This document shows, one piece after another, positions 17,617-44,685 of a DNA stretch of 64,000 nt. This DNA comes from Candidatus Saccharimonadota bacterium (GTDB lineage Bacteria; Patescibacteriota; Saccharimonadia; Saccharimonadales; UBA4665), in assembly GCA_036743655.1 (NCBI GenBank), contig DAINPB010000004.1:15788-79787 (forward strand), in the 5' to 3' direction. The notes below the pieces were generated by a model. The model was not told where the DNA came from, did no database searches, and saw only the letters and a list, made by a program, of their open reading frames with translations. Within the stretch, counting starts at the first letter, position 1. Every line of letters starts with the position of its first letter. The position numbers were made by a program, and so were the translations under genes.

Positions 17617-17691
17617 GTTCTAGCTTCCATCACTATGGAGAGCCAAGCATAAACACTATACAAATACCACTTTATGTGGTATTTTTAGTTT
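17617..17691 (+). promoter_or_regulatory. upstream module M1 (junction motif plus stereotyped promoter) for yvcK
   Basis: gttctagCTTCCATCACTATGGAGAGCCAAG, then TATACA, a 17-nt spacer holding a perfect inverted repeat AAATACCAC-tttat-GTGGTATTT, -10 TATTTT, 6 nt, ATG. Confidence 0.55.
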
Positions 17692-18678
17692 ATGGCAAAT
17701 GCTCCAGAGATTGCACTCATTGGTGGTGGCACCGGCAGTTTTACGCTCTTGCAGGAACTGAAAGGTTTCACCCCTAATATCTCAGCAATCGTAAACATGA
17801 GCGATGATGGCGGCTCGACAGGTGTATTGCGGGATGAGTTTGGCGTATTGCCCCCAGGCGACGTTCGGCAATGTCTGGTAGCACTGAGCGACACACCAGA
17901 TGTAAGAGATCTTTTCAACTATCGTTTTGGTGGCGACAGCGCATTAGCAGGCCACAGCCTTGGCAACTTAATACTGTCCGGTCTCGAAATGCAACGGGGT
18001 AGTTTTGACCAGGCACTCAAGGTGGCCAGTTCAATACTGCATATAACTGGCAAGGTTCTGCCAGTCACTCTAGAAAAACATTCATTGGTAATGCAGGATG
18101 GTGAGGAGAAGGTCGTAGGAGAGCATCTTATTGGAAATCGTCCGATTAATTATTCGGATGCAGTCGTTTCGTTGGAGCCACCTGCAATACTCAATCCTGA
18201 TGCTGCAGAAGCGATCAGAGGAGCCGATCTTGTTGTCGTTGCACCGGGTAATCTTTACGGCTCATTGCTTCCCGCCTTAGCTGTCGAGGGAATGTCGGAG
18301 GCGTTCGCTGAGGCATCTGGCAAGAAAGTACTTATTAGCAATCTCGTAACAAAGCCTGGGCAAACCGACGGCTGGCACGTTGCCGACTATGTGCGAGCAA
18401 TCGAGCGATACATTGGAGCAGATCAAATTGATGTCGCCCTACACAACCAAGACTTACCCGAAAAGGACCTACTTGAAAAATATGCTGCGGAGGGCGAATT
18501 TCCAGTAGCTACAGATATAGCGCGGTTTGCAGAAATTTCTGCTCGTCCGCTTGGAGCAAATCTTGTAGCAACAGACGTTGTAAAGCAAGATGAAAGTGAC
18601 AAGGCGATTCGTCGTACTTTAATTCGACACGATGCACGCCAAGTCGGCAGGCAATTGATGCGTATTTATTATGAATAG
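17692..18678 (+). CDS. yvcK: YvcK/CofD-family protein (gluconeogenesis factor, UPF0052)
   Basis: IGGGTGSFTLL and NMSDDGGSTGVLRDEFGVLPPGDVRQC are signature regions. Confidence 0.85.
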   Translation: MANAPEIALIGGGTGSFTLLQELKGFTPNISAIVNMSDDGGSTGVLRDEFGVLPPGDVRQCLVALSDTPDVRDLFNYRFGGDSALAGHSLGNLILSGLEMQRGSFDQALKVASSILHITGKVLPVTLEKHSLVMQDGEEKVVGEHLIGNRPINYSDAVVSLEPPAILNPDAAEAIRGADLVVVAPGNLYGSLLPALAVEGMSEAFAEASGKKVLISNLVTKPGQTDGWHVADYVRAIERYIGADQIDVALHNQDLPEKDLLEKYAAEGEFPVATDIARFAEISARPLGANLVATDVVKQDESDKAIRRTLIRHDARQVGRQLMRIYYE

Positions 18679-18686
18679 ATTAGTCT

Positions 18687-18751
18687 GGTTCTAACTTCCA
18701 TCACTCGGGGAGCCAGCCTTGACACTTTTAATTTTATGTTAATATTGCATA
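18687..18751 (+). promoter_or_regulatory. upstream module M2
   Basis: ggttctaaCTTCCATCACTCGGGGAGCCAGCC, TTGACA, spacer, TAATAT/ATATTG, then the ATG at 18752. Confidence 0.5.
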
Positions 18752-19168
18752 ATGGATTTCGAGCGAGGTGAAATTCTAGGTCGCCCAGCATTAGTTAATA
18801 AAGACGGGGTACGTTTCAGCCTCATTGATAATGAGCATGTTTCTTTCGGTGATGTTTGTCGTGGGCTAACACACCAGCAGGCTCAATATGGCAGCCGCTA
18901 TGTCAATGCGCATTTTGCTGACCAACACCCTTTTATAGGACAAGGCTTGCGAATCGTGGGAGACCCGAACGATTATCATGAGCTGGGCATACATCCGGAT
19001 GACATAGACGAGTTTGTCAAACGTTACGGTATTGCAAGGGCTTACGAAAGTGGCGTCGTCATAGAAGACGGCAGAACACGCGTACTAAGTGAACAAGAGA
19101 AGCTAGAAACGCACAATTATCTGGAGAGTATTGGTGCTTTCACCCCGTCCAACTCCTCAGACTTATAG
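18752..19168 (+). CDS. hypothetical protein (138 aa)
   Basis: ORF track. Preceded by module M2. No domain recognised. Confidence 0.6.
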   Translation: MDFERGEILGRPALVNKDGVRFSLIDNEHVSFGDVCRGLTHQQAQYGSRYVNAHFADQHPFIGQGLRIVGDPNDYHELGIHPDDIDEFVKRYGIARAYESGVVIEDGRTRVLSEQEKLETHNYLESIGAFTPSNSSDL

Positions 19169-19235
19169 TCGCGAAGTACGTCCACTAAAAGAAGCCAAGA
19201 TTGACATTAAGTGTCTATAGTGTTGTACTCTATAT
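19169..19235 (+). promoter_or_regulatory. upstream module M3
   Basis: tcGCGAAGTACGTCCACTAAAAGAAGCCAAGA, TTGACA, 17 nt, TACTCT-like -10, then the ATG at 19236. Confidence 0.5.
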
Positions 19236-19541
19236 ATGAGCGATGTGAGCGCTGAGTGTCCCGATTTTGAGAGCCCGCTTTGTGGGCTGAGTAATGTCCG
19301 CTCAAAACTAGCGTCTTATGGCGCATTCGTCCACGAGGGCAGATACAACAGTGTCGGCCCATTTGAAAATGGACTTGAACAAAAAGACGTTATCATAGGC
19401 CTAGCATCATCCGGCGAAGAAAGTATTTGGGATAGTGCAAATTTAGGGTGTTTGGCTTGCGGGAAATGCCTGACAGTCACACGCGAGATAGATGGGCATT
19501 TCGTCACAATACGTGATGATTTAAGCTTCAAGCGCGACTAA
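19236..19541 (+). CDS. hypothetical Cys-containing small protein (101 aa)
   Basis: ORF track. Preceded by module M3. Confidence 0.55.
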   Translation: MSDVSAECPDFESPLCGLSNVRSKLASYGAFVHEGRYNSVGPFENGLEQKDVIIGLASSGEESIWDSANLGCLACGKCLTVTREIDGHFVTIRDDLSFKRD

Positions 19542-19554
19542 CTCAGTCAAGATC

Positions 19555-19640
19555 GTTGCGAAGCTTGTCCACTAGGAGGAGCCACGTTGGACACTAAAGG
19601 CACCCGTGACGCTTGGCACGCAGTCACTCTTTTATGTTAG
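19555..19640 (+). promoter_or_regulatory. orphan module M4 (best motif copy, no downstream plus-strand gene)
   Basis: GTTGCGAAGCTTGTCCACTAGGAGGAGCCACG TTGGACA..., followed only by a decayed promoter-like stretch and then the 3' end of a minus-strand gene. Confidence 0.45.
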
Positions 19641-19657
19641 ACGCTAGCTCCTTGTTC

Positions 19658-19936
19658 TCAACGCGTTATAAGAATAAAAAACGCTTTCGGGAAAGGCTGC
19701 TTGTTGAAATACATTTCTTCGAGTCCATGCGCTAGGTAGAGCCCTAGCCCCAGGGCTATGGTTATTTTGTTTGCGTAAGCTAATCCGGCAGCTAGTATGA
19801 CCAGCCCCGTGACACTATGATGAACATGAACCTTGAGGTATCGTTTGTCATCAACCCTCTTGCTAACTTTCTTAGAAATCGGGTTGACTAACACTGTCAC
19901 AATAATGGTGAGAGCGGTAAGCAGAAAAATCTCCAT
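19658..19936 (-). CDS. small membrane protein (92 aa)
   Basis: ORF track. 2-3 TM helices. Lies in an AT-rich segment. Confidence 0.5.
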   Translation of the reverse strand: MEIFLLTALTIIVTVLVNPISKKVSKRVDDKRYLKVHVHHSVTGLVILAAGLAYANKITIALGLGLYLAHGLEEMYFNKQPFPKAFFILITR

Positions 19937-19945
19937 ACTAAATGA

Positions 19946-20797
19946 TTATAAGTAAATGGCCCAGATAATTATAGCCAGCAGGGCAGCGCTGGCTATGATC
20001 TGCTTGGGTAACACCTTTTCTTTGAGGACAAGGGAGCTGCCCGTATAGATCATTGCTGGGCCAAGTGCGAGCACCATGATGGTAAAGTTCAGCCCTAAAT
20101 GCTTTATGGAATAGAGCTGCAATAAGTTGCCGACGATATACATTACTCCCGCCCCGACGCCTAAAACGAGTTGATCATTTTTAATTCCTTTGAGCCGCGG
20201 CTTGAGAAAAACCCCCACCAATAGCAGGACGCCTGCCGACCGAAACAACAATAAATAAAACGGGCTGACGTGCTCCAGACTCACCTTATATACACTCGTT
20301 AAAACCGCCGACAACACTACGGCGACGAAAAGGTATGCCGTACCTTTATCGAATGCCAACTTGAGTTTCCGATTCGAATTGCTGGCGTACAAGATAGCCG
20401 TGCCAGCAATGATGGCAATAATGTACTTAGTATTTCTCTCCGAAGGGAAGAGCGCATACGCCAAAAAACCGGCCAAGATCGGTTGAAAATTACTGATGGG
20501 CTCACGCAAAGATAGATTCTTCGTGCGCAGCCCAACATAATCGAAGAAGTTCTGGCCAAAGGACACTATAATCATGAAAGCAATTAGACCAGCTGTCGCC
20601 AAGGTTATAGTCGGCATGGGCTGCCGGACAAAAACTGAGAATATGAGCAACCCAATCACCATCGTGACGAACAGCAGGAACAGGAGTCGATCAGGTAGAA
20701 TTTTGTTTTTTTGATAGTTGAGCTTGTCTGTGGTTTTGCCAATCGACTCCGCTACGGCAGAAAGCAAGGGATATATAAAGGTCATTGCCTCCATCAT
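19946..20797 (-). CDS. polytopic membrane protein, DMT/EamA-like transporter
   Basis: 283 aa with about 10 hydrophobic helices in two halves. The family call is tentative. Confidence 0.55.
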   Translation of the reverse strand: MMEAMTFIYPLLSAVAESIGKTTDKLNYQKNKILPDRLLFLLFVTMVIGLLIFSVFVRQPMPTITLATAGLIAFMIIVSFGQNFFDYVGLRTKNLSLREPISNFQPILAGFLAYALFPSERNTKYIIAIIAGTAILYASNSNRKLKLAFDKGTAYLFVAVVLSAVLTSVYKVSLEHVSPFYLLLFRSAGVLLLVGVFLKPRLKGIKNDQLVLGVGAGVMYIVGNLLQLYSIKHLGLNFTIMVLALGPAMIYTGSSLVLKEKVLPKQIIASAALLAIIIWAIYL

Positions 20798-20829
20798 ACT
20801 AGAACGAACGCTAATGCTACTATGTTATC

Positions 20830-21597: not shown

Positions 21598-21606
21598 GAT
21601 ATGTCT

Positions 21607-21649
21607 GTTAAGCAATGTGAGCTTCAAGACCGTTAGGCTAAGCCAAGCC
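21607..21649 (+). repeat. degenerate junction-motif copy M5
   Basis: GTTAAGCAATGTGAGCTTCAAGACCGTTAGGCTAAGCCAAGCC. The downstream gene at 21729 is SD-led (GAGGAGGAG). Confidence 0.35.
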
Positions 21650-21728
21650 TCTACTTAATGACTAGCCTATAGGACTTGTAAAAAATTCTAGAATGGTGCA
21701 TCCTTGATCTGATAGAGGAGGAGCTAAC

Positions 21729-22160: not shown

Positions 22161-22204
22161 CGGCGTTAGAGCTGGCCAATTTTTCAGCGATTAGCGTAAA
22201 CGGC

Positions 22205-22927: not shown

Positions 22928-23065
22928 AATATCTCTCCCTAATTACACCCTAAATATAACAGTATCTTTCTGGGCTGCAAGCATAAGGATTGCACGTTTG
23001 AGGCTATAAAATCTACTTGATCATTGTAGGTTTATTCTACCTTCAAGATGTTGAAAGCTTTTAAA

Positions 23066-23141
23066 GTTGCGGAGTGCGTCCAATAGGATGAGCCGGGCAT
23101 AAGCACCATGCAAATACCGCTTTTTGTGGTATTTTATTTTT
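23066..23141 (+). promoter_or_regulatory. upstream module M6
   Basis: GTTGCGGAGTGCGTCCAATAGGATGAGCCGGGC..., cATGCAA, AAATACCGC-ttttt-GTGGTATTT, -10 TATTTT, 6 nt, then the ATG at 23142. Confidence 0.55.
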
Positions 23142-23672
23142 ATGGAACACAGTGAGGCTCGGCCTGAATTGTCGTATATTCAACAAGCTAGACAAGAAAT
23201 ACCAAAATTGTTTGTCGATAAATATGAGTATGCTACCGCCCTGGCTGGGGCAGGCATTGCAGACCTATTGTTATCTGGGCAAGAACAAATTCTGCATATA
23301 GGCTCTACGGCAGAATTATTGGGGGGTTTCGCACTAAGCGCCGTTGGAGCGTTTGTGGATATAGCAAGCACTAGGAGACTATTCAGAACCAACGATGAGG
23401 CGCTAGCCAGTGGCATAGACATTGGACTATACGAATCCAATATGATGATGAACCGGCCCATGACAGCGCAAGATTTAGATGTTGCGCTTAAGAGAAAACG
23501 AACGGTGATCACGCAAGCAGGTGTTATTTTGACAAGTTTAGTGAGTCCCTATGTAGGTTTTGGCTTAGGGGGCGCAAGATTTACGGCAGCCTGGCTCAAC
23601 AGACGAAAAGAAAAGTTAGTTAAAAAAGCACTTGATTTTGCGTCCCAAGATCAATTGAATTCGTCGCGCTAG
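23142..23672 (+). CDS. hypothetical membrane protein (176 aa)
   Basis: The ORF track starts at a TTG at 23124, but its first six codons (MWYFIF) are the translated -10 box. The ATG at 23142 is preferred. Confidence 0.6.
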   Translation: MEHSEARPELSYIQQARQEIPKLFVDKYEYATALAGAGIADLLLSGQEQILHIGSTAELLGGFALSAVGAFVDIASTRRLFRTNDEALASGIDIGLYESNMMMNRPMTAQDLDVALKRKRTVITQAGVILTSLVSPYVGFGLGGARFTAAWLNRRKEKLVKKALDFASQDQLNSSR

Positions 23673-23674
23673 AA

Positions 23675-23743
23675 ATACGAAGGCGCTCAACAGGGGAGCC
23701 AGACTTAAGGTATCTTAGTTTTTATATTTTGGCTTATTCAAGG
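23675..23743 (+). promoter_or_regulatory. orphan module M7 (motif plus TATTTT box with no gene)
   Basis: ATACGAAGGCGCTCAACAGGGGAGCCAGAC, then ttaaggtatcttagtttttaTATTTT, running straight into the stop of the convergent kinase gene. Confidence 0.4.
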
Positions 23744-24934: not shown

Positions 24935-25199
24935 GGCGCACACACTAATCCGATCTGGATTTGTTAAGACGATGCGGTTTTGATCAAATTATCTTCGATC
25001 GTGGGTAAACCGCCGTACCCTAATTGTGTTCCTTCCAAGCCACAATAGATGTAAGATATTCGTGTATTTACCATTAACGCTTATCGATTTGCATACATAC
25101 CGTTACATCATTGTGTTGATTGACCTCAAAGTTGCGAAATGCGCCAACAAAGGGGGACTATAGATTTACAGATATCATATTTTATGATATCTTACGCAT

Positions 25200-25526: not shown

Positions 25527-25533
25527 ACAGATA

Positions 25534-25568
25534 GTTGCGAAGTGCGCCCGCTATGGGAGCCCTAAGCA
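25534..25568 (+). repeat. junction-motif copy M8
   Basis: GTTGCGAAGTGCGCCCGCTATGGGAGCCCTAAGCA, 7 nt after the stop of the gene at 25200. Confidence 0.5.
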
Positions 25569-27627: not shown

Positions 27628-27663
27628 GCTTCCACATCTCCACCAGCTCAATTTGATCCGATT

Positions 27664-27756
27664 CGTTTTCGTCAAAGGGAGGAGAGCCAAGATTAAAACC
27701 AATATCTACAGGAGCATAAGGCCGCTATCTCCACCCTGGGGTAGTACAATATAACC
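27664..27756 (+). promoter_or_regulatory. upstream module M10
   Basis: CGTTTTCGTCAAAGGGAGGAGAGCCAAGATTAAAAC, then TACAAT 6 nt before the GTG start at 27757. Confidence 0.4.
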
Positions 27757-28356: not shown

Positions 28357-28423
28357 CCTATTAAGCTGAGCTGACTTTGGCTTAAGTCAAAGCCGTCTTG
28401 AACCAAGACTCTAACTTCCTTTG

Positions 28424-29065
28424 CTACGCGGGAGCCAGTTTTTGAAAGTGCTGGTAATCTACATAGCCGTATTCTTCCTTCCAGTGTCCTCCCCATTCCC
28501 AACCGCAATCAAGAAATAAACGTACCGTTTTATCCCCATCGCTGATGGCACCTTTGGCACGAGGATCATAGTTTGGCCCGGCAGGTCTTACTACCCCGTT
28601 TTGAGTTATATATGGATTTATCAATGGGTTTATATCTATAGCTCTTCCGTAGGAATGGTTGGAAAGCCGTTTTGTGGCAAATACATTCCGGTAATTAAAA
28701 GCGGAGGTGTTATTATCCTTAATACTCCTGCGATCACTCCATCCGTAAGCAACGATTGGCACTGCCTTGAGGATGGGGAACTTATTAAGCAATAACTGTT
28801 TAAAAATATATGCTACTTCTGCTTGCAGATCCTTGTGTATTACTATTTGGCCTTCATGTATTTTATTATCGAAACCCAGATACTGTATGTCTACGATCCC
28901 GAGGGTTGCAATAATCTCTTCAGGCGCCGCTGAGCCATGTAGCGCCTCAGAAAAAGTCATTTTGCTATCTATGGTGATTCGCGTCATGACCAAATTATAC
29001 CCGAACTGTCCTGATAGTTTCGGAGAGCCCTGAAAAAATCTAACTTCCATCTTAGGAGGAGCCAC
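28424..29065 (-). CDS. M15-family zinc peptidase (VanY / D-Ala-D-Ala carboxypeptidase-like)
   Basis: SNHSYGRAIDINP (HxxxxxxD) and the C-terminal DYQHF. The start is uncertain (GTG at 29065 or ATG at 29050). Confidence 0.7.
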   Translation of the reverse strand: MAPPKMEVRFFQGSPKLSGQFGYNLVMTRITIDSKMTFSEALHGSAAPEEIIATLGIVDIQYLGFDNKIHEGQIVIHKDLQAEVAYIFKQLLLNKFPILKAVPIVAYGWSDRRSIKDNNTSAFNYRNVFATKRLSNHSYGRAIDINPLINPYITQNGVVRPAGPNYDPRAKGAISDGDKTVRLFLDCGWEWGGHWKEEYGYVDYQHFQKLAPA

Positions 29066-29104
29066 AATTTGCTACTTAATATATTTATGTTAGTGTACCA
29101 ACAT
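29040..29104 (+). promoter_or_regulatory. upstream module M11 (overlaps the start of the opposite-strand peptidase gene)
   Basis: CTAACTTCCATCTTAGGAGGAGCCACAATTTGCT, then ttatgttagtgt, then the ATG at 29105. Confidence 0.4.
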
Positions 29105-29428: not shown

Positions 29429-29506
29429 TCCTTATTCCTGCGCCTAGGTCTATGCAGCTAAGCTAAAGCTGGCTGGGACTCCAAGGTTACGGGAGGCCAT
29501 GAAAAA

Positions 29507-29540
29507 GCGCCAACTCCGTCCGCTATCAGGAGCCAAGACT
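29507..29540 (+). repeat. junction-motif copy M12
   Basis: GCGCCAACTCCGTCCGCTATCAGGAGCCAAGAC. Confidence 0.45.
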
Positions 29541-29637
29541 AGCCCCAGCACAAAGTTGAGTAATAATTCGTACTCATGCATACTGCCGGTTTTGCTATTA
29601 TTAAGGTCTCAGAAAGTAGTTAGACGAAGGGGTTGTC

Positions 29638-30602: not shown

Positions 30603-30718
30603 CGTTTCAGTACTCCTTGCTGTTGCAGTATGCTTTTTATACTACAGATTCATCATTTTTGAAAGGCCCCTCACTCGCAAGCCTCTATAAAATACTGGAG
30701 CAATACTTGAATCTTGGA

Positions 30719-30782
30719 GTCGTGAAGTGTACCCGCAGAGCTCCGACTTGACAGACGTTACACAGAGAAGCACTATTGTATT
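30719..30782 (+). promoter_or_regulatory. upstream module M13
   Basis: GTCGTGAAGTGTACCCGCAGAGCTCCGAC, TTGACA, 17 nt, CACTAT, 6 nt, then the ATG at 30783. Confidence 0.45.
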
Positions 30783-35344: not shown

Positions 35345-35878
35345 ATGGCAAACAGATTAACTCTTGGTATGTACGGTGGGGAATTCGGGCGAGCATCGCA
35401 TGACTCGCGGCTTTTTGGTTTGCGAACCGGCCAGATACGAGAGAGTTTGGGTGATGATCGCCGGCTAGTAAAGGATGCCGGCTGGTACAACGCCGACGGT
35501 CACAAGCTAGGCTGGGGCGACATTGGCCCAGAGGATGTTAAGTCAATTTGCACCGAGCTGTTAGATACCGAGGTATTTGTTGTTCTGAATAGGGGTGATT
35601 CGTTCGACGAGTTTGTTGAAGAGTACGACACACTGAGCGGAATCGGCTCACTGGCTACCGTAGATAGCACGGCAGAATACCTACCAAGCCGGGCGTACAT
35701 CGCCAGCAAGGCCGTGCTCGCCCTCATGTCAGGAACCCTGATCGACACCGGGAAGTATGGTACGGTTGGCTCATTCCATGAGCTATACCCCGACTATTAT
35801 CCGGAGCTTGAAGTTGTCCAGCAGACAGAAGCCGAGCTTTATTTAACGCTGCAAGACATAGCTAGCCAACAAGGCTAA
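35345..35878 (+). CDS. hypothetical protein (177 aa)
   Basis: ORF track. Lies 11 nt after the previous gene. Confidence 0.55.
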   Translation: MANRLTLGMYGGEFGRASHDSRLFGLRTGQIRESLGDDRRLVKDAGWYNADGHKLGWGDIGPEDVKSICTELLDTEVFVVLNRGDSFDEFVEEYDTLSGIGSLATVDSTAEYLPSRAYIASKAVLALMSGTLIDTGKYGTVGSFHELYPDYYPELEVVQQTEAELYLTLQDIASQQG

Positions 35879-35879
35879 A

Positions 35880-35965
35880 GTTGCGGAGTACGTCTAGTAG
35901 GGGGCTTAATACCTTCGCTCAAAGTACTCCTTCGGAGGTGTTTTTGTTTTGCTATACTTAAGCCC
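35880..35965 (+). promoter_or_regulatory. upstream module M16
   Basis: GTTGCGGAGTACGTCTAGTAGGGGGCTTA, a weak hairpin CTCC-ttcg-GGAG plus a T-run, TATACT, 7 nt, ATG. Confidence 0.5.
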
Positions 35966-36283
35966 ATGAAAAGCGTTGACACTCTATCTATTTCTGAGCT
36001 CGCCCAAATGGCTGGAAACATGTTCGGCAATTTAGTAAAAGCAGTTGTTGACGTAGACCAAAACCTTCTCGTGATTGATGCAGAACTTCATGCCGATCAG
36101 GAACAATTTCTACTTGAAAACGGTTCAAAACAAGCCAATCTATGGGGTATCAATCTATACCCTGAGAAGTTTGGGACTGATGAATTCATTGAGTTTGACT
36201 CGATGATCAATATTCGCCCTAAGCAAAACAATAGATCACGAGATGTTGAAGATAAAGCATTAAGGAGAGGGTTACTGCTATAG
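35966..36283 (+). CDS. hypothetical protein (105 aa)
   Basis: ORF track. Leaderless-type promoter upstream. Confidence 0.5.
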   Translation: MKSVDTLSISELAQMAGNMFGNLVKAVVDVDQNLLVIDAELHADQEQFLLENGSKQANLWGINLYPEKFGTDEFIEFDSMINIRPKQNNRSRDVEDKALRRGLLL

Positions 36284-36302
36284 TAGAGCTGAAGATTACA
36301 TC

Positions 36303-36629
36303 ATGAGCAAACAATACACAATCGATCGAACACGCTGGGCAAAGCTTGGCATATTCGACCAAATGGGCAATATCTACAGTGAGGTTGGTCGATCATTCAA
36401 GGCTAACGACAGGAGCAGTCAGGAACAAGCTATCGCACGCGCAAGAGATTTATTTAATGCCACTATTTATGTCTTGAGCAAGACAGAATCACCACGTGCA
36501 AAGGAAGTGCGGCGAGCGAAACAGCAATTCTTGGAGATAGTCTCTGACAAACATGCCAGCCAGGAATCCATTCAAAGCCTGGATCGTTATTTTTTGCAGT
36601 TCGCTATTGCGGCTCGGCTCCATCGCTAA
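36303..36629 (+). CDS. hypothetical protein (108 aa)
   Basis: ORF track. Confidence 0.5.
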   Translation: MSKQYTIDRTRWAKLGIFDQMGNIYSEVGRSFKANDRSSQEQAIARARDLFNATIYVLSKTESPRAKEVRRAKQQFLEIVSDKHASQESIQSLDRYFLQFAIAARLHR

Positions 36630-36708
36630 AGCTCGAAGCCTGTCAACCAAGGGGAGCCAAGTATAAGCGCTCTAGAGGAAGTGTCTTCTTATTTGGTATA
36701 GTTAAATC
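36630..36708 (+). promoter_or_regulatory. upstream module M17
   Basis: AGCTCGAAGCCTGTCAACCAAGGGGAGCCAAGTATAAGC, then TGgTATAGT, 6 nt, ATG. Confidence 0.5.
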
Positions 36709-38379: not shown

Positions 38380-38877
38380 ATGAGTCACTGTACTTCACGC
38401 AGACAGCTACGAATTGCCAATAGCAATCAGCTTTTACACCCCAGCCAGATTGAAGAGGGGATAGAGATTGGCGTAGTTAACCTAATTAAGCCGACGCCAC
38501 AAAGGGAACGCACCCTTCAAGCCGTTGCCGCACTTGCATTTTCGTATGGAAGAAACGCTGGGGAAGGGCGCTTTGCGGCTGGAAAACGCGGGTGGCAGTT
38601 CAGTACGCCTCACGGCTTACTACCCGACTGGCGAGGGATTGTAAATAGCGTCGGAGGGCATGGAGTCTGGGTAGACCTCACGGGGACTCGAGGTGATAAC
38701 AACGATCCATTTAGCTATATGGATCAAAGCCTAGAGGCTCTCCCTGACGTCGTACACCCCATCCGACAGCATTGCACATTACAAAGCATAGGATTAGCTG
38801 CGCTTGCTTCAACCAATAGCGCACTCAGAGAAGAAGCAGGTCGCTGGATTCCAGCTGCAACCATTCGCTTGTCTTAG
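38380..38877 (+). CDS. hypothetical protein (165 aa)
   Basis: The ORF track starts at a TTG at 38362 (MWYFCF is the translated -10 box). The ATG at 38380 is preferred. Confidence 0.55.
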   Translation: MSHCTSRRQLRIANSNQLLHPSQIEEGIEIGVVNLIKPTPQRERTLQAVAALAFSYGRNAGEGRFAAGKRGWQFSTPHGLLPDWRGIVNSVGGHGVWVDLTGTRGDNNDPFSYMDQSLEALPDVVHPIRQHCTLQSIGLAALASTNSALREEAGRWIPAATIRLS

Positions 38878-38944
38878 CTCTAAGTACACCAAATAGTGAG
38901 AGTCAGAATTTGCAAAATACTGACTTATATGTTATTATGCATCT
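38878..38944 (+). promoter_or_regulatory. upstream module M20
   Basis: CTCTAAGTACACCAAATAGTGAGAGTCAGAA, TTGCAA, 17 nt, TGtTATTAT, 6 nt, ATG. Confidence 0.5.
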
Positions 38945-39928: not shown

Positions 39929-39966
39929 GGTGCTCGTCATATGTGGTGCACAGCGGAGCTAGAACT

Positions 39967-40595: not shown

Positions 40596-40669
40596 TCCAG
40601 AGCGGCTAAGGGCGCCTGCTAGCCTTACCAAGTTTTGACAGGTACTATTAATTATGCTATTTTTACTTT
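40596..40669 (+). promoter_or_regulatory. upstream module M23
   Basis: Degenerate motif, then TTGACA, 17 nt, TATTTT, 6 nt, ATG. Confidence 0.5.
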
Positions 40670-42484
40670 ATGTCGAATTTTGAGGAAGGTGCCTCTGAAC
40701 TAGGTCGTTTGGACGGCCCGAATATTTTAGATGGAGACACGCTGTTTGCTCTCTTGGCGTCCTCCGGAATTGCTGAGTTGAGCTCCGGTGACGCCCTGAC
40801 GACAGTCTACGTCGATAGCACGCCCAAAGACGAGGGGGAGCTATACGTGAACCCTGACGGAAGAACCGTGCACGGCTTTATGACGAAATTCTCACCCGAC
40901 TTTACTGGCTGGGGGCAGGGCGATCTGGTGCGCGCACGTTTTGTGATTAATCCAAAGGCCGACCAAGTATCATTGCTCGTGGCCGATAGTTTCGTCGGCG
41001 ATATCCGTCACGCTGACGAATTTGTACTAGAAGGCGATCAGGCAGAATTAGCAAAATTACGCGGCCTCGGCATTACCGAGCTTGACCTAGACGTGGAAGT
41101 TACCAGCGAGGAGCGCGAGTACATTGTTAGTAATATGTTCAAATACTCAGCCCGGGTTGATCGGATAAATAACATCCTGACAGCCTGGGACGGCAAGAGC
41201 GAATTAACTCCGGGCCAGGTTCTCCTACAAGGCGAAGTAACAGAGTATATTGCAGACGAACGTGGTGCTCCTGACAATAAGAAGCCCACGCACATGACGC
41301 TAGACGTCAACGGAGAGTCCGTAGTCATCAATATGAACGCTGGGCACGTTCGGTACGAAGGCGGCCCTTACGAGAAACTCCTCAGCGACGTTCCTGAAAT
41401 CGGAGACGTCGTCCAGGTGCTCGCCCACTACAATCCGGATTTCAAACAGCAGCCACACTACAGACCGCGGGTAAGCGCCTTCGATGCTAGCTGGTGCAGG
41501 TCTACGTACTGTTTGGCGGTTAACGCTGAGCGGGCAGCGGAGCAAGAAGCGTTCAGCGTGGCGTTAGATAATGCGATTGATGAGCTGGCAACAATCACTG
41601 AGCATCCAAGATTTCGCCAGCAATACGGCAGAATTATTGAGCAGTCACTCGTTGATTCAGCTGGCAAGGACTGTCGTAGCCGTGCCCAGCAAGAACGTAT
41701 GGCCAAGCTGGTGGAGGCTATATTCCCCGAAGATCAACACCTGAGAAAACCACTACTTGCCATCGGCAAAGACTTTCCGTCAGTCTATGCCACCTTCAAG
41801 GAGTCGTACGGCATCGATATCTACTCGATGAGCGTGTCAGAGGTATGCGCTGTCGTCATGGGAATCGCCCAAGATCCCTCAAAACTCGATCCTAAAACCA
41901 GGGAGACCGATTACCTTTTCCGGGTTGTTAACGATGCGCTATCGCCAGAGCAGATGAGCACGCTTGCAACAACCATACTAAGCACGTACTACCCGATCAC
42001 CGTAAGGAAGGATGCCTCGTACGACAAAGACTATACGCCAGAGCACGGGAAAGTACCCTACTGCCAGCGTTCCTTAACCGAAGCAGCAATTTCGCACCTT
42101 GGTTCAACTGGGCTGGAACGTGATATCGAGACACTCACCGCATTGTTCGAAAGCTCAATAGCAAACGATCAATTCTCCCAAATCCGCAGAGAAAACGACT
42201 ATATGACCGCGATTACTAATAGCCTCCACCACGCCCTCTGCGAAACAGGCACTTGGTCGGCCGACAAGGGTTGGCATGGGGTTACTGATATTGACGTTTT
42301 GCAGCGCTTCCAGCAGGTAGTTATCCCTCGATTGACCGCCGCCATGGGCATCTACACGGCAAAGGTTAATGCGCTCCCTTATGTGAACGACGAAAAGTAC
42401 GCCGCGTTCAACCACAGCTTCACGCTGGATCACTTGCAGAAAATGGTAGAACTCGCCAGCGAACTTGAAGCGCTAGCTGCCTAA
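40670..42484 (+). CDS. large hypothetical protein (604 aa)
   Basis: ORF track. No motif recognised. Confidence 0.65.
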   Translation: MSNFEEGASELGRLDGPNILDGDTLFALLASSGIAELSSGDALTTVYVDSTPKDEGELYVNPDGRTVHGFMTKFSPDFTGWGQGDLVRARFVINPKADQVSLLVADSFVGDIRHADEFVLEGDQAELAKLRGLGITELDLDVEVTSEEREYIVSNMFKYSARVDRINNILTAWDGKSELTPGQVLLQGEVTEYIADERGAPDNKKPTHMTLDVNGESVVINMNAGHVRYEGGPYEKLLSDVPEIGDVVQVLAHYNPDFKQQPHYRPRVSAFDASWCRSTYCLAVNAERAAEQEAFSVALDNAIDELATITEHPRFRQQYGRIIEQSLVDSAGKDCRSRAQQERMAKLVEAIFPEDQHLRKPLLAIGKDFPSVYATFKESYGIDIYSMSVSEVCAVVMGIAQDPSKLDPKTRETDYLFRVVNDALSPEQMSTLATTILSTYYPITVRKDASYDKDYTPEHGKVPYCQRSLTEAAISHLGSTGLERDIETLTALFESSIANDQFSQIRRENDYMTAITNSLHHALCETGTWSADKGWHGVTDIDVLQRFQQVVIPRLTAAMGIYTAKVNALPYVNDEKYAAFNHSFTLDHLQKMVELASELEALAA

Positions 42485-42503
42485 TATCGGTTAAGCGATC
42501 AAA

Positions 42504-42571
42504 GCCGCAAAGTACCCCCCCGGAGAGCGCAGAGCTTTACAGATACACGGCTTTATGATACTATCGTCTTT
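42504..42571 (+). promoter_or_regulatory. upstream module M24
   Basis: GCCGCAAAGTACCCCCCCGGAGAGCGCAGAGC, TTTACA, 17 nt, TACTAT, 7 nt, ATG. Confidence 0.5.
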
Positions 42572-42916
42572 ATGGCAGCAGAATTTTCACGCGAGGAACT
42601 AGCTGAATACTCAGCACAAAATAAGCACGGCTACGAAACCCTTGCACTCATGGCGCCCTATTGGCGATCTTTCCTTCTAGACAAGGCCGAGAAAGCCCGC
42701 CTGGAGATGCTGGACAGGAACACGCGCCGATTAGGCTCTAACGCAATCTATTTTTCCTTTGCAGCAAAAGTCACAGGCATCGCTGTTGAACAGATTGAAA
42801 GCGTGGGTCACACCGGCGACTTCATCACCATCGTACCGACACCCGATGTTTGCACATTCCAAGAATTCCTCAGGGAAAAATTTCCCGCAACAACTCCGCT
42901 CCAACCCGCAGGCTAA
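42572..42916 (+). CDS. hypothetical protein (114 aa)
   Basis: ORF track. Confidence 0.55.
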   Translation: MAAEFSREELAEYSAQNKHGYETLALMAPYWRSFLLDKAEKARLEMLDRNTRRLGSNAIYFSFAAKVTGIAVEQIESVGHTGDFITIVPTPDVCTFQEFLREKFPATTPLQPAG

Positions 42917-42920
42917 CAGT

Positions 42921-42980
42921 CTCCACCGCCCAACAGGGAAAGTCCGGCACCCTTTGAGCCAATCCTGCTATCATTAACCA
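42921..42980 (+). promoter_or_regulatory. upstream module M25 (degenerate)
   Basis: CTCCACCGCCCAACAGGGAAAGTCCGGC, then TATCAT, 6 nt, ATG. Confidence 0.35.
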
Positions 42981-43706
42981 ATGCATGAGCTGCTCCTTCT
43001 CGTCGTCGGATTTATCGTAGCCTTCATCGGTACTATGTCGGGTGGCGGTGCTGGCCTCTTGGCGGTGGCTACGCTGCTTTATTTCGGGCTGCCCATCAAT
43101 CAAGCCATTGCCACCAACAAATTTGGCGACCTGGGCTTCTTCCTGCCGGCCTTGCGCAATCTCATCAAAGCCAAACAGATCGAGAAAAAAGCGCTGCCAC
43201 CCATTATCATGATCAATGTCGTTGGCGTAGTTATCGGCACCCTCCTGATTACGCATCTGGACAGAAACACCTTCAAGAAGCTAGTTGCAGGAATCCTCGT
43301 GATAATACTGATCTCCAGCCTTATCAAGAGAAACTATGCGCTCAAGGAGCGCTCCGCTCGCTGGTACTGGCCGTTTATATACTTCGGGACTTCCATTTCG
43401 TCTGGGGCGGTCGGAGCAGGGACGGGCATTTTGTCTACGCTGACACTGATGTACTTCCGCGGCTTTACGGCGCTGCGAGCAATGGCACATAGTTTTTATG
43501 CGGGCGCACTCGGCTCGCTGATCAGCGTCAGCATGCTGCTGTTCACCAGCCTCATAAATTACCGCTACGCCGTCTGCCTATTAGCTGGCAATATCATCGG
43601 CTCACATCTAGGCTCAAAAATCGCCATCAAAAAAGGCAACGCGTTCGTACGCATCATGATCATAATCCTCGCCATTTGCGTTATGTTGCAGCTGATACTC
43701 TTCTGA
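42981..43706 (+). CDS. TauE/SafE (TSUP, DUF81) family anion exporter
   Basis: 241-aa polytopic protein with N-terminus GTMSGGGAGLLAV...TNKF, typical of TSUP. Confidence 0.8.
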   Translation: MHELLLLVVGFIVAFIGTMSGGGAGLLAVATLLYFGLPINQAIATNKFGDLGFFLPALRNLIKAKQIEKKALPPIIMINVVGVVIGTLLITHLDRNTFKKLVAGILVIILISSLIKRNYALKERSARWYWPFIYFGTSISSGAVGAGTGILSTLTLMYFRGFTALRAMAHSFYAGALGSLISVSMLLFTSLINYRYAVCLLAGNIIGSHLGSKIAIKKGNAFVRIMIIILAICVMLQLILF

Positions 43707-43817
43707 TATTCGGACCTTCGCAGGAACCGAGCAGTGATGACGAGGAGCGATAAGCCTCTCCCTGGCGTACAAGACGCTGCAGCAGTTATGTAACGTGCTT
43801 ATCGAAGACAGCACGTC

Positions 43818-43852
43818 TTTGCAAAAACAGCTTTTTGTGGTATTTTATACTT
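43818..43852 (+). promoter_or_regulatory. stereotyped promoter M26
   Basis: TTTGCA, 17 nt (..ctttttGTGG), TATTTT, 6 nt, ATG. Confidence 0.55.
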
Positions 43853-44146
43853 ATGAGCACTCCTGAGCGATCGGCCAACGGCGATAATGCGGATATCAGG
43901 CCCTTGGCCGACTTCGAACGGCGACGCCTGTCGCTTGGTGACTGCCCAGAACCAGTACACCAAGCGCTCGACATCCTCCACGAAAAAGCAGATGAGTTGG
44001 ACTTACAAACCAGCCGAACCGAAATAGTTGCCGCACTTATAATGGACGTGATGCGGAATGATGCCGACGCCAACTATATGGCCAGGCTAATCCTGCGACA
44101 TCGTAAAATACGCATTCGCTACCTTGATCCCGGCGAAGAAGATTAG
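43853..44146 (+). CDS. hypothetical protein (97 aa)
   Basis: The ORF track starts at a TTG at 43835 (MWYFIL is the translated -10 box). The ATG at 43853 is preferred. Confidence 0.55.
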   Translation: MSTPERSANGDNADIRPLADFERRRLSLGDCPEPVHQALDILHEKADELDLQTSRTEIVAALIMDVMRNDADANYMARLILRHRKIRIRYLDPGEED

Positions 44147-44158
44147 GCAACAGTTCGT

Positions 44159-44193
44159 TTTATATTTACGTTGTTATATGGTATTTTAATCTT
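44159..44193 (+). promoter_or_regulatory. stereotyped promoter M27
   Basis: atATGGTATTTT, 6 nt, ATG. The -35 is weak. Confidence 0.45.
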
Positions 44194-44616
44194 ATGAGCC
44201 GCGAGGACTACCCAGAGAAGGAGCCACCCGTCGGGAGAGAGCATCCTGAGTTCGTGGCAGCCTATGCGCACATCAATCGTGATACAGGGGAGTCCTGTAC
44301 GGTGCCTTTCCCAGCCGCCGTATTCGGTATTCACCACGAGTTCTTCGGCGTCGGCAAGGTTATCGGGAGCATTGAAGATAACCCCGTTATAGAGGTAGAA
44401 GATCGGGATGACGGCGAGCCATACTGCATTATGGGTTACGACTCCTGGTGGACACACCCCGTACCACAAGAGATATTGGACAAAATGGCCAGCGGCGAGC
44501 TGACTATCGACAGCGTCGCCTCGTACAAGACAAGACTGGATGATGACCTGGAAGCGACAGAGAGCGCCGACAGGGACTTCCTCGAAGATTGCGATATCGA
44601 TCCCGATTCGCTGTAG
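44194..44616 (+). CDS. acidic hypothetical protein (140 aa)
   Basis: ORF track. Confidence 0.55.
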   Translation: MSREDYPEKEPPVGREHPEFVAAYAHINRDTGESCTVPFPAAVFGIHHEFFGVGKVIGSIEDNPVIEVEDRDDGEPYCIMGYDSWWTHPVPQEILDKMASGELTIDSVASYKTRLDDDLEATESADRDFLEDCDIDPDSL

Positions 44617-44622
44617 CTGCAC

Positions 44623-44685
44623 GCCCGCTCTTGAGGAGCACCTATTTACAAATATGGTTATATATGGTATTTTTAGCTTAATATT
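44623..44685 (+). promoter_or_regulatory. upstream module M28
   Basis: CGCCCGCTCTTGAGGAGCACC, TTTACA, 17 nt, atATGGTATTTT, then 12 nt to the ATG of the helicase. Confidence 0.5.

What the first reader, a model, noticed from the sequence alone, without database searches (positions are those of the whole stretch)
17617..44685. A conserved 30-40 nt GGAGCC-containing junction motif recurs about 25 times between genes of the array, always on the plus strand
Best copies of the motif:
- GTTGCGAAGCTTGTCCACTAGGAGGAGCCACG (19555)
- tcGCGAAGTACGTCCACTAAAAGAAGCCAAGA (19169)
- GTTGCGGAGTGCGTCCAATAGGATGAGCCGGG (23066)
- GTTGCGAAGTGCGCCCGCTATGGGAGCCCTAA (25534)
- GTTGCGGAGTACGTCTAGTAGGGGGCTTA (35880)

A second subtype reads CTTCCATCACTATGGAGAGCCAAG (17624), CTTCCATCACTCGGGGAGCCAGCC (18695) and CTTCCATCTTAGGAGGAGCCACAA (29045). 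Weaker copies lie at 21607, 23675, 26474, 27664, 29507, 30719, 33288, 34884, 36630, 37722, 38279, 38878, 39416, 39967, 40596, 42504, 42921 and 44623.

The motif starts 0-20 nt after the upstream stop codon and ends right at the -35 of the next promoter. A short central hairpin is kept by different sequences (TCC/GGA, TCCAT/ATGGA, CCC/GGG, CTTCC/GGAGG), which hints at covariation. In the best copies the first 18-21 nt read V-A-K/E-x-V-H/Q-stop in one frame (GTT GCG AAG CTT GTC CAC TAG; GTC GCG AAG TAC GTC CAC TAA; GTT GCG GAG TGC GTC CAA TAG). It could therefore be the fossil 3' end of a repeatedly duplicated coding sequence, the same logic as the atpG tails.

Alternatives: a cassette-boundary or recombination site, a 3'-UTR or termination element, or an activator/UP-type site at -40 to -75.

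Caveat: related strings also precede the atp promoter (GCAAGTACGTCGCAC, minus strand 8667-8653) and the tRNA promoter (TCTGCCCGCTAACTCC, 15909-15924). It may be a genome-wide promoter-proximal element.
Basis: seen in the sequence. Interest (0 to 1): 0.7.

Follow-up and report, generated by a model that had tools for sequence, protein, structure and literature searches.

The report
Recombination scars of tRNA-Asn gene cassettes
The repeated ~32-45 nt GGAGCCA motif is the attachment-site arm left at the right end of each mobile gene cassette inserted, one after another, exactly behind the tRNA-Asn gene of a Saccharibacteria genome, most likely by large serine recombinases; together these insertions form an integron-like hotspot of accessory genes.

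Summary
The motif is real, but there are about 14 solid copies, not about 25. A model trained only on relatives finds 11 copies of at least 10 bits in the window. All are on the + strand and lie at 17.0-36.7 kb; shuffles give 0.09.

It is conserved across Saccharimonadales: 83 of 83 hits are on the + strand, almost all downstream of smpB-tRNA-Asn.

It is not a coding fossil, a promoter element or an RNA hairpin (no covariation). Indels between near-identical relatives show that DNA is inserted exactly after the tRNA-Asn CCA. The motif is the right end of the insert, and G(G)AGCCA is the duplicated core.

In at least 10 relatives a large serine recombinase (LSR) gene abuts the tRNA 3' end. A divergent variant of the motif occurs in a circular 10.7 kb LSR element as P-core-P' (attP). 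Its integrated relative shows attL at the tRNA and attR 9.7 kb away. The distal subsite lies 5 bp further out in the motif than in the tRNA, as the LSR attP/attB rule predicts.

The window has no LSR gene or remnant. Its cassettes are therefore either mobilised in trans or fossil scars. This is a new variant of a known kind.

The parts
16087..16161 (+). tRNA-Asn(GTT) with encoded CCA. Its 3' end (GGTTCGAATCCAGTCCCCGGAG-CC-A) is the chromosomal target (attB, B arm); inserts enter directly after position 16161.
   Evidence: ARAGORN; Rfam. Empty versus filled sites in relatives. smpB-tRNA-Asn synteny in relatives.
16162..17021 (.). First (newest) cassette. It holds a tRNA trailer/terminator, a ~240-nt conserved region and a ParE-like toxin/antitoxin pair on the minus strand.
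   Evidence: Pfam. 92% amino-acid identity to L076/L077, whose SmpB is only about 57% identical.
17022..17064 (+). tRNA-like ('type T') junction. It holds a 23-nt exact copy of the tRNA-Asn 3' end (GGTTCGAATCCAGTCCCCGGAGC), preceded by a conserved ~65-nt pseudo-tRNA arm.
   Evidence: Sequence; alignment A1; HMM hits.
17613..17655 (+). Junction motif, subtype B (GTTCTAGCTTCCATCACTATGGAGAGCCA|AGCATAAACA).
   Evidence: 21.3 bits with the independent model.
18684..18725 (+). Junction motif, subtype B.
   Evidence: 11.7 bits; 17.0 bits.
19165..19207 (+). Junction motif, subtype A.
   Evidence: 27.1 bits.
19552..19594 (+). Junction motif, subtype A, followed by minus-strand genes (19658-20797).
   Evidence: 31.3 bits; ORFs.
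23063..23105 (+). Junction motif, subtype A, preceded by a minus-strand gene.
   Evidence: 29.9 bits.
23671..23711 (+). Junction motif (weaker), followed by a minus-strand histidine kinase gene.
   Evidence: 7.7 bits; 13.2 bits.
25128..25170 (+). Junction motif, subtype A, with a decayed core (GGGGGACTA).
   Evidence: 21.0 bits.
25531..25568 (+). Junction motif, subtype A.
   Evidence: 20.3 bits.
27656..27696 (+). Marginal or decayed junction copy.
   Evidence: 5.6-6.2 bits.
28404..28447 (+). Junction motif, subtype B, followed by a minus-strand M15 peptidase cassette that is shared with L007.
   Evidence: 13.3-13.8 bits; shared cassette.
29033..29074 (+). Junction motif, subtype B.
   Evidence: 9.3 bits; 14.4 bits.
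29503..29545 (+). Junction motif.
   Evidence: 12.5 bits; 20.7 bits.
30717..30754 (+). Marginal or decayed junction copy.
   Evidence: 6.9 bits, and only with the seed-containing model.
35877..35919 (+). Junction motif, subtype A, with its core lost (GGGGGCTTAA).
   Evidence: 22.5 bits. Left boundary of a cassette shared with L035.
36627..36669 (+). Junction motif. It is the right boundary of the two-gene cassette 35921-36661 shared with L035.
   Evidence: 24.9 bits. The HSP ends +2 and +1 nt from the junction in the two genomes.
38877..38911 (+). Marginal or decayed junction copy.
   Evidence: 8.0 bits.

Best explanation
**What it is.** The motif is one half (the 'P arm' plus the short common core GAGCCA) of the attachment site of small mobile DNA elements. 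These elements integrate site-specifically at the very 3' end of the tRNA-Asn gene, after the encoded CCA.

**How the array forms.** A circular element carries P-core-P'. It recombines with the tRNA end (B-core-B'). This leaves tRNA|P' on the left and P|B' on the right. That right junction is the motif. Repeated insertions at the tRNA push older elements outward. The result is an array of cassettes, each ending in a plus-strand motif whatever the orientation of its genes.

**Likely enzyme.** The enzyme is most likely a large serine recombinase (LSR) of a family that, in relatives, sits directly against the tRNA 3' end.

**Shown**
- The motif is the right end of inserted DNA behind the tRNA CCA.
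- The core is duplicated at the two ends of the insert.
- LSR elements at this site have the attP, attL and attR configurations.

**Inferred**
- The same LSRs, acting in trans, placed the recombinase-less cassettes of this window. Alternatively, those cassettes are immobile scars.
- The crossover dinucleotide lies in CC/CA of the CCA end.
For: 1. **Statistics.** 11 window hits of at least 10 bits with a model trained only on relatives, against 0.09 in shuffles; all are on the + strand. Across the window plus 80 loci, 83 of 83 hits are on +. In relatives, 67 hits lie downstream of smpB against 2 upstream.
2. **Empty versus filled sites**.
   - L006/L008: the tRNA is 100% identical and the downstream flank 98.8%. 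L008 reads tRNA..GGAGCCA|[1.83 kb]..GCTGAGCCA|AGCATAAGCAC.
   - L050/L054 are 95% identical. L054 reads tRNA..GGAGCCA|[3.4 kb]..AGGTTGCTGATTGAGTTGTGCAGGGGGAGCCA|GAAATTTTG, which matches the L050 trailer.
   - L077/L078 lose all homology exactly at the tRNA end.
3. **Cassettes shared between genomes start and end at junctions**. The same TA cassette has 92% amino-acid identity in genomes whose SmpB is about 57% identical to the window's.
4. **Orientation.** The motif's orientation does not depend on the neighbouring genes.
5. **LSR genes at the site.** Genes with Resolvase, Recombinase and Zn_ribbon_recom domains abut the tRNA-Asn 3' end in 10 loci. C-terminal LSR remnants sit right after junctions in at least 7 more loci, including inside the L054 insert. 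The ORF ends inside the complement of the tRNA.
6. **Position in LSR loci.** The first motif copy lies 8.3-9.1 kb after the tRNA and is followed by a native-type tRNA trailer. In L141 a 33.9-bit type A copy lies 9.06 kb after the tRNA.
7. **All three site configurations.** The circular contig L091 (55-nt terminal overlap) carries P|P' next to the LSR gene. Its integrated relative L092 has tRNA|P' and, 9.7 kb away, P|trailer with the same P arm.
8. **Spacing rule.** The distal subsite GTT(G)CGAA lies 5 bp further from the core in the motif than in the tRNA. This is what is described for LSR attP versus attB (PMC3783163; sequences).
Against: - No LSR gene or remnant is in the 64-kb window, nor within 10 kb downstream of the tRNA in most relatives that carry arrays.
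- Across array junctions, the flank to the right of the core shows no inverted copy of the distal P subsite. The small cassettes therefore lack a recognisable P' arm.
- Canonical LSRs do not recombine attP with attL. Serial insertion at an already occupied tRNA end needs either trailer-mimicking cassette starts or a permissive enzyme of the Ccr type. This is unexplained.
- The only circular attP found (L091) has a divergent P-arm subtype, scoring 8.5 bits against the model.
- Two LSR clades only 23% identical to each other are both associated with type-A-like arms. Some 'right ends' may therefore belong to older cassettes.
- Near-identical contigs of the window's own strain show no cassette polymorphism.
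Confidence: 0.75

Rival explanations
1. The junctions are recombination scars, but not made by an LSR. They would come either from a tyrosine integrase targeting tRNA-Asn, or from homology-facilitated illegitimate recombination after natural transformation. In the second case the conserved tRNA acts as the anchor and GGAGCCA as the microhomology.
For: - tRNA genes are classic targets of tyrosine integrases (own knowledge).
- The 'type T' junctions carry 23 nt or more of tRNA identity plus a pseudo-tRNA arm. This is typical of such elements and points to a second integration mechanism at the same tRNA.
- The duplicated core is only 6-7 bp.
- No LSR is present in the window.
Against: - No tyrosine recombinase was found in the window ORFs tested, between smpB and the tRNA, or among 94 downstream ORFs.
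- Microhomology joining does not explain why 30 nt to the left of the core are conserved across genomes with 55-87% SmpB identity.
- It also does not explain the attP/attL/attR set next to LSR genes.
Confidence: 0.12
2. The motif is a promoter-proximal DNA element (an UP element or activator site) that boosts transcription of the downstream gene.
For: - Many copies end 0-10 nt before a -35-like hexamer, for example GGAGCCAAGATTGACA.
- The median distance from the CCA to the next + start codon is 76 nt.
Against: - 17 of 79 downstream neighbours are on the minus strand, yet the motif is never inverted.
- In the window, copies 19555, 23675 and 28405 have no plus-strand gene downstream.
- The motif is part of the upstream inserted segment, not of the downstream gene.
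- It is absent from promoters elsewhere in the window and upstream of smpB in 80 loci.
- Only 2 junctions are followed by a consensus-type promoter call.
Confidence: 0.04
3. The motif is an RNA element at the 3' end of the upstream transcript: a terminator, a stabiliser, or a tRNA-like processing signal ending in CCA.
For: - It starts a median of 14 nt after upstream stop codons.
- It ends in ..GGAGCCA, like the tRNA acceptor end.
Against: - The proposed hairpin shows no covariation and no consensus structure.
- There is no Rfam match and no T-run.
- 14 of 83 upstream neighbours are on the opposite strand.
Confidence: 0.04
4. The motif is the fossil 3' end of a repeatedly duplicated coding sequence.
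For:
- On the opposite strand, the core and P arm are read as the C-terminal tail of the LSR ORF in the circular form of L091.
Against: - Conservation continues beyond the supposed stop codon.
- The variable columns are not third codon positions.
- The copies lie outside the ORFs, and no paralogous gene family precedes them.
Confidence: 0.01

Closest known systems
Attachment sites of large serine recombinases/integrases (phiC31, Bxb1, A118/LI family)
   Same: - The recombinase has Resolvase, Recombinase and zinc-ribbon domains, and its gene lies next to the site.
- The sites are about 40-50 bp with a short common core.
- The circular form carries P-core-P', and the integrated form carries hybrid attL and attR.
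- The distal (ZD-type) subsite lies 5 bp further out in attP than in attB (PMC3783163).
   Different: - The target is the CCA end of a tRNA gene rather than a protein-coding gene.
- The integrase ORF is completed by the complement of the tRNA.
- In this window, many tandem junctions flank tiny cassettes that have no recombinase.
- No phage genes are involved. Only relatives of 31% identity or less occur in IMG/VR.
SCC / SCCmec composite islands at rlmH (orfX), built by Ccr large serine recombinases
   Same: (Comparison from established knowledge.)
- Serial insertion at the 3' end of one conserved housekeeping gene.
- Tandem arrays that include elements lacking the recombinase.
- Every element is bounded by direct repeats of the integration-site sequence, all in one orientation.
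- The cargo is accessory, resistance and defence genes.
   Different: - A different target (tRNA-Asn) and a different phylum (Saccharibacteria).
- The cassettes are mostly single genes of 0.4-1.2 kb.
- Orthology to Ccr was not tested.
Integrons (IntI, attI, attC cassette arrays)
   Same: - A fixed insertion point, with the newest cassette proximal.
- Long arrays of small, mostly single-gene cassettes, each ending in a same-orientation recombination site.
- Cargo rich in toxin-antitoxin pairs, acetyltransferases and proteins of unknown function.
- The recombinase is not part of the cassettes.
   Different: - No IntI tyrosine recombinase is present.
- The site is a conserved double-strand sequence of about 32-45 bp, not a 57-141 nt structured attC hairpin.
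- Cassettes appear to carry their own promoter-like sequences, and some are inverted.
- There is no evidence for a common Pc promoter.
Tandem accretion of tRNA-targeting integrative elements (tycheposons of Prochlorococcus; CIME/ICE accretion)
   Same: - Successive integrations at the same tRNA push older elements into a growing island.
- Partial-tRNA-like repeats separate the elements (bioRxiv 10.1101/2020.12.28.424599).
- Degenerate elements lacking an integrase accumulate.
   Different: - Those systems use tyrosine recombinases and true partial-tRNA repeats.
- Here the repeat is a distinct conserved arm that shares only the core and a displaced distal subsite with the tRNA.
- The associated enzyme is a serine recombinase.

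Membership tests
Large serine recombinase att sites | A large serine recombinase gene (Resolvase N-terminal, Recombinase and zinc-ribbon domains) is associated with the site. | tested here: met
   Met in relatives. Pfam domains were found in 7 of 8 ORFs tested. Ten loci have a full-length gene abutting the tRNA-Asn 3' end, and about 30 further metagenomic loci do so. Not met in the window itself: no LSR gene or remnant.
Large serine recombinase att sites | The circular element carries attP (P-core-P'). The integrated form has attL (B-core-P') and attR (P-core-B'). | tested here: met
   L091 is a circular contig with P|P'. L092 has tRNA|P' and P|trailer 9.7 kb apart, with the same arms. This was shown for one subtype only.
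Large serine recombinase att sites | The distal (zinc-ribbon) subsite lies about 5 bp further from the crossover in attP than in attB. | tested here: met
   CGAA to the core is 23 nt in the type A motif and 18 nt in the tRNA. In L091/L092, GTTCGCAG lies at positions 19-26 in P and GTTCGAGT at 14-21 in B. The rule is from PMC3783163. This is sequence-level evidence only.
Large serine recombinase att sites | Imperfect dyad symmetry of the two half-sites. | tested here: inconclusive
   The L091 attP has GTTSRYAG at 19-26 (P) and 18-25 (P', reverse complement). Across 63 array junctions there is no inverted distal subsite in the right flank.
Large serine recombinase att sites | A central 2-bp crossover and unidirectional integration controlled by an RDF. 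| not testable with these tools
   Only the shared core G(G)AGCCA could be delimited.
Integron | An IntI-type tyrosine recombinase next to the insertion point. | tested here: not met
   No integrase was found in the window ORFs tested or between smpB and the tRNA. There was no tyrosine-recombinase signature or probe hit in 84 sequences. None appeared among the listed Pfam families of 94 downstream ORFs.
Integron | attC sites are structured imperfect palindromes, conserved in structure rather than sequence. | tested here: not met
   No covariation and no consensus fold. The sequence itself is conserved.
Integron | An array of same-orientation recombination sites separating small cassettes at one fixed insertion point. 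| tested here: met
   In relatives the median spacing is about 980 bp.
tRNA-targeting tyrosine-integrase islands (tycheposon / CIME type) | A tyrosine recombinase, with true partial-tRNA direct repeats as att sites. | tested here: not met
   No tyrosine recombinase was found (see the integron rows). Only the 17030 junction and its relatives are true tRNA copies. The main motif shares only the core and a displaced subsite with the tRNA.
SCC-like composite island | Tandem elements, some lacking the serine recombinase, bounded by direct repeats at the 3' end of one conserved gene. | tested here: met
   This is an analogy. Orthology to Ccr and the rlmH target do not apply and were not tested.
Sigma-70 promoter UP/activator element | Fixed position and orientation relative to a downstream transcribed gene, and presence at promoters generally. 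| tested here: not met
   17 of 79 downstream neighbours are on the opposite strand. The motif is absent outside the array.

The most novel reading that the evidence does not exclude
The recombinase-less, promoter-bearing single-gene cassettes are not dead scars. They would be actively captured, excised and reshuffled in trans by tRNA-end-specific large serine recombinases. Saccharibacteria, and perhaps other CPR bacteria, would then own a serine-recombinase counterpart of the integron: tRNA-Asn plays the role of attI and the 32-45 bp motif the role of attC.
Probability: 0.3. Interest if true: 0.8.

Novelty: new variant of a known kind. Interest (0 to 1): 0.62.

Why it matters
- **A route for gene gain.** Saccharibacteria and other CPR bacteria have ~1 Mb genomes, few recognised mobile elements, and an epibiotic lifestyle. 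How they gain accessory genes is poorly understood.
- **A conserved hotspot.** The results point to one hotspot, the CCA end of tRNA-Asn, conserved across the order. Defence systems (type I and III R-M, nSTAND, DUF262), toxin-antitoxin pairs, APH phosphotransferases, transporters and many unknown genes accumulate there as discrete cassettes.
- **A likely enzyme family.** The associated recombinases also target tRNA-Gly, tRNA-Arg and tRNA-Ser.
- **A practical use.** LSRs with a short attB that is universally present could serve as integration tools for CPR bacteria, which have only recently become genetically tractable, and could add to the general LSR toolbox.
- **Literature.** No description of this system was found in the searchable literature. 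That search does not cover subscription journals.

Tried and rejected
- **RNA structure.** The proposed hairpin (columns 12-19 paired with 24-34 of A2) shows no covariation, and RNAalifold finds no structure. Rfam finds only the tRNA.
- **Integrase in or near the array.**
  - Pfam on 20 window proteins found none.
  - ORFs between smpB and the tRNA in 20 relatives encode glycosyltransferases, flavodoxin-like proteins and similar.
  - A crude tyrosine-recombinase signature and XerD/IntI1 C-terminal probes gave nothing.
  - A Pfam census of 94 downstream ORFs showed 99 families with at most 4 members each.
- **Phage origin.** A viral-contig scan for the motif gave one chance hit in a high-GC coding sequence. 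LSR relatives in IMG/VR are 31% identical or less.
nhmmer reports nothing there. Local-alignment scores are only marginally higher on + than on -.
- **General P/P' dyad symmetry at array junctions.** None was found.
- **Strain-level cassette polymorphism of the window's own array.** All near-identical contigs have the same gene order.
- **LSR alignment of all 11 clades.** It was too diverse for the metagenome scan, so a 4-member subset was used.

Full report
**Setting.** The window comes from a Saccharibacteria (Saccharimonadales) metagenome-assembled genome. The same arrangement is found on ENA contig ERZ27294354 k141_142759. The 80 best SmpB relatives are nearly all Saccharibacteria MAGs.
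- smpB (15417-15920) is followed by tRNA-Asn(GTT) at 16087-16161, which has an encoded CCA.
- Downstream lies a run of small, mostly plus-strand genes of unrelated function: a ParE-like TA pair, GNAT, CofD, EamA, an endonuclease/phosphatase-family protein, a histidine kinase, BrnT/BrnA, LysE, an M15 peptidase, nSTAND3, APH, His_Phos_1, OmdA and many proteins of unknown function.
- GC content rises from about 0.45 next to the tRNA to about 0.52 at 40-44 kb.

- GGAGCCA occurs 12 times on + and once on -; 11 of the 12 lie within 16-45 kb.
- To avoid circularity I built an HMM from relatives' copies only. It finds 11 window hits of at least 10 bits. All are on +, at 17.0-36.7 kb, and none is on the minus strand or elsewhere. 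100 dinucleotide shuffles give 0.09 per window.
These are the nine beyond 36.7 kb except 38878, plus 21607, 26474, 33288 and 34884. A few look like decayed copies by eye.
- The look-alike strings at the atp and tRNA promoters score nothing.

**Conservation.** In 80 loci around smpB from other Saccharimonadales (SmpB identity 52-87%), smpB-tRNA-Asn synteny is kept.
- The motif recurs downstream. All hits of at least 10 bits are on + (68; 83 of 83 including the window). 67 lie downstream of smpB and 2 upstream.
- 25 of 50 loci with at least 5 kb of downstream sequence have at least one copy. Arrays reach 6-7 copies, with a median spacing of about 980 bp.
- The consensus is AAAGTTGCGAAGTACGTCCACTAGGGGGAGCCA, followed by AGCATAAGCAC.. 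in many copies.
More tRNA-like variants also exist.

**What it is not.**
- Not an RNA or ssDNA hairpin. The proposed helix is 62.1% paired against 62.7% in column shuffles. There is no excess of compensatory changes, and RNAalifold predicts nothing.
- Not a coding fossil. Conservation continues past the 'stop codon', and variation is not at third codon positions.
- Not a promoter or 3'-UTR element. The motif never flips, yet 17 of 79 downstream and 14 of 83 upstream neighbouring genes are on the minus strand. In the window, copies 19555, 23675 and 28405 precede minus-strand genes.

**What it is: the right end of inserted DNA.** Three pairs of close relatives act as natural experiments.
- L006 and L008 have identical tRNAs and 98.8% identical downstream sequence. 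L008 carries 1.83 kb (one DUF262-like gene) inserted exactly after the CCA..CCCCGGAGCCA|GACCAAGC...GCTGAGCCA|AGCATAAGCACTTTG, where the last part is what follows the tRNA in L006.
- L050 and L054 are 95% identical. L054 has 3.4 kb inserted at the same point, ending ..AGGTTGCTGATTGAGTTGTGCAGGGGGAGCCA|GAAATTTTG, which matches the L050 trailer.
- L077 and L078 are 92% identical upstream and lose all homology at the last base of the tRNA.
- So the motif belongs to the insert, G(G)AGCCA is the duplicated core, and the insertion point is the tRNA 3' end.

Cassettes shared between genomes start and end at junctions.
- Window 35921-36661 matches L035 11756-12494; the ends lie +12/+2 nt from the window junctions and +1 nt in L035.
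- L008 4206-4865 matches L035 12939-13597.
- The minus-strand M15 peptidase cassette matches L007.
- The OmdA cassette follows a junction in three genomes.
- The first window cassette (the TA pair) is 92% identical at protein level to copies in genomes whose SmpB is about 57% identical to the window's. This indicates horizontal transfer of cassettes.

**The enzyme.** No integrase is present in the window or in the small cassettes. A resolvase probe, however, picked up ORFs of about 500 aa directly behind the tRNA in several relatives.
- Pfam shows the Resolvase, Recombinase and Zn_ribbon_recom domains of large serine recombinases.
- Full-length genes abut the tRNA-Asn 3' end in L010, L018, L029, L033, L037, L039, L043, L063, L071 and L075.
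- C-terminal LSR fragments sit right behind the tRNA or a junction in L052, L054 (inside the 3.4-kb insert), L055, L056, L058, L076 and L077.
- The ORF runs into the complement of the tRNA..WLRGLDSNQRPSG*, with 42 nt inside the tRNA in 7 of the 10 loci examined.
- In LSR-bearing loci with enough sequence, the first motif copy lies 8.3-9.1 kb from the tRNA and is followed by a native-type tRNA trailer/terminator. This holds for L018, L029, L033 and L063, and for L141 with a 33.9-bit type A copy.
- The L033 unit consists of the LSR, a small ORF and a type I R-M system, ending in the motif.

**attP, attL and attR.** A metagenome scan with the LSR returned 80 loci.
- The family sits at the 3' ends of tRNA genes: mostly tRNA-Asn, but also tRNA-Gly, tRNA-Arg and tRNA-Ser.
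- L091 is a 10,728-nt SPAdes contig with a 55-nt terminal overlap, so it is probably circular. It encodes the LSR, a DUF4238 protein and a type III R-M system.
- L091 carries ..CCGTTCGCAGTTCGTTTGCCACTGCGAGCCA|ATTTTGAGAAATAGTGCTATC.. next to the 3' end of the LSR gene.
- Its integrated relative L092 has tRNA-Asn..CCGGAGCCA|ATTTTGTGAATTAGTGCTAG. 9.7 kb further on it has ..ATTCGCAATTCGTTTGCCAGTGCGAGCCA|AGCTGAGCAG, a tRNA trailer.
- This is the full attP to attL plus attR relationship, for a P arm that is a divergent variant of the window motif.
- P|P' next to an LSR without a tRNA is also seen in L093, L116, L138 and L148.
- The distal subsite lies 5 bp further from the core in the motif than in the tRNA. 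CGAA to the core is 23 nt against 18 nt in the window; GTTCGCAG lies at 19-26 against GTTCGAGT at 14-21 in L091/L092. This matches the shifted zinc-ribbon motif that distinguishes attP from attB in serine integrases (PMC3783163).

**Mechanism proposed.**
- Shown: cassettes enter at the tRNA-Asn CCA end, and the motif is their right-end arm plus core.
- Shown for relatives: LSR elements use this site, with canonical att-site logic.
- Inferred: the window array was built by serial integrations, newest next to the tRNA. The GC gradient fits this, as does the fact that the only exact tRNA copy is the first junction.
- Inferred: the LSR-less cassettes were mobilised in trans or are what remains of decayed elements.

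**Open problems.**
- There is no LSR in the window.
- The cassette starts show no recognisable P' arm.
- Canonical LSRs do not recombine attP with attL, so re-use of an occupied tRNA end is unexplained.
- Many cassette starts mimic the native trailer (AGCATAAGCAC.. or RACCAAGCAC..), which might regenerate an attB.
- A second junction class exists (the ~100-nt 'type T' pseudo-tRNA arm). It probably reflects a different integration mechanism at the same tRNA.

**Comparison with known systems.**
- The site behaves like an LSR att site.
- The array resembles SCC composite islands at rlmH (established knowledge), tycheposon-type accretion at tRNAs, and, functionally, an integron.
- It fails the integron membership tests: no IntI and no structured attC.
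- Literature searches found no description of this system in Saccharibacteria or Patescibacteria.

**Verdict.**
- This is a new variant of a known kind.
- It is of moderate to high interest for mobile-element and CPR biology, and as a source of tRNA-targeting serine integrases.

Noticed in passing
L018 10603-10837; L038 934-1195; L047 12102-12377 (also L044 and L075 by sequence): In several relatives tRNA-Asn is interrupted in the anticodon loop by a ~235-275 nt group I intron (Rfam RF00028, 79-89 bits). ARAGORN therefore finds no tRNA there.
   Followed up: partly
window 17662-17684, 23112-23134; also about 34916, 38363, 39468, 43836, 44177, 44663: A second recurrent element lies just upstream of cassette start codons. 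It is the palindrome AAATACCACnnnnnGTGGTATTT overlapping a TGTGGTATTTT box. TGTGGTATTTT with up to 1 mismatch gives 10 matches against 1.1 expected, and 8 of them lie in the array (7 on the + strand). It may be a shared promoter/operator with very short leaders. It also occurs after junctions in L005, L007, L032 and L038.
   Followed up: partly
window 16960-17053; L008 6984-7076; L035 11654-11741; L060; L073 (two copies); L076; L077; L087: A conserved ~100-nt 'type T' junction: TTGACAAATAACAGAGGTAAGCTAAAGTAAAGCGAGCCTAAAAATTAGGTGGTAG..CTGGTTCGAATCCAGTCCCCGGAGCCA. It looks like a degenerate tRNA-Asn body with a promoter-like TTGACA-17-TAAAGT. It probably marks a second class of element integrating within the tRNA.
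   Followed up: partly
window 16162-16402: The ~240 nt after the tRNA hold a terminator and a second T-arm-like fragment (GCGGTTCGAATCTAGTTCCC, at about 16250). The region is conserved at 70-90% in L025, L035, L064, L073, L076 and L077. There is no Rfam match. Its function is unknown.
   Followed up: partly
L033 11389-12879 and nine other loci; L091 3891-4043: The LSR ORF is completed by the complement of the tRNA (..WLRGLDSNQRPSG*) when integrated. In the circular form it reads on through the P arm for about 30 more residues (WLAVANELRTASMDYADSEVRNIKG..). It is then in frame with a small ORF that starts just inside the element's right end. This could be an integration-state-dependent change of the recombinase C-terminus.
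   Followed up: partly
L102, L104, L108, L111, L117, L118, L127-L129, L131, L132, L136, L139, L140, L143, L144, L146, L149, L154, L158: Members of the same LSR family abut the 3' ends of tRNA-Gly, tRNA-Arg and tRNA-Ser genes in other metagenomic contigs. tRNA-end targeting is therefore a family trait with switching specificity.
   Followed up: no
window 16421-17054: The ParE-like toxin/antitoxin cassette is 92% (toxin) and 64-78% (antitoxin) identical in protein to copies in L076/L077. Their SmpB is only about 57% identical to the window's, which implies recent horizontal transfer.
   Followed up: partly
L007, L026-L028, L030, L033, L036, L039, L040, L042, L043, L045, L048, L051, L052, L055, L059: between smpB and tRNA-Asn: In many relatives 0.8-3.9 kb lie between smpB and tRNA-Asn. 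This DNA encodes glycosyltransferases, flavodoxin-like NAD(P)H reductases, a two-component system and other proteins. The upstream side of the tRNA is therefore also variable, but it has no motif copies.
   Followed up: no
window 44686-47964: The region of small genes ends at a 1092-aa ResIII/SNF2-type helicase with several HTH domains. It has no homologue within 10 kb downstream of smpB in the 80 relatives. It may mark the distal border of the island or be further cargo.
   Followed up: no
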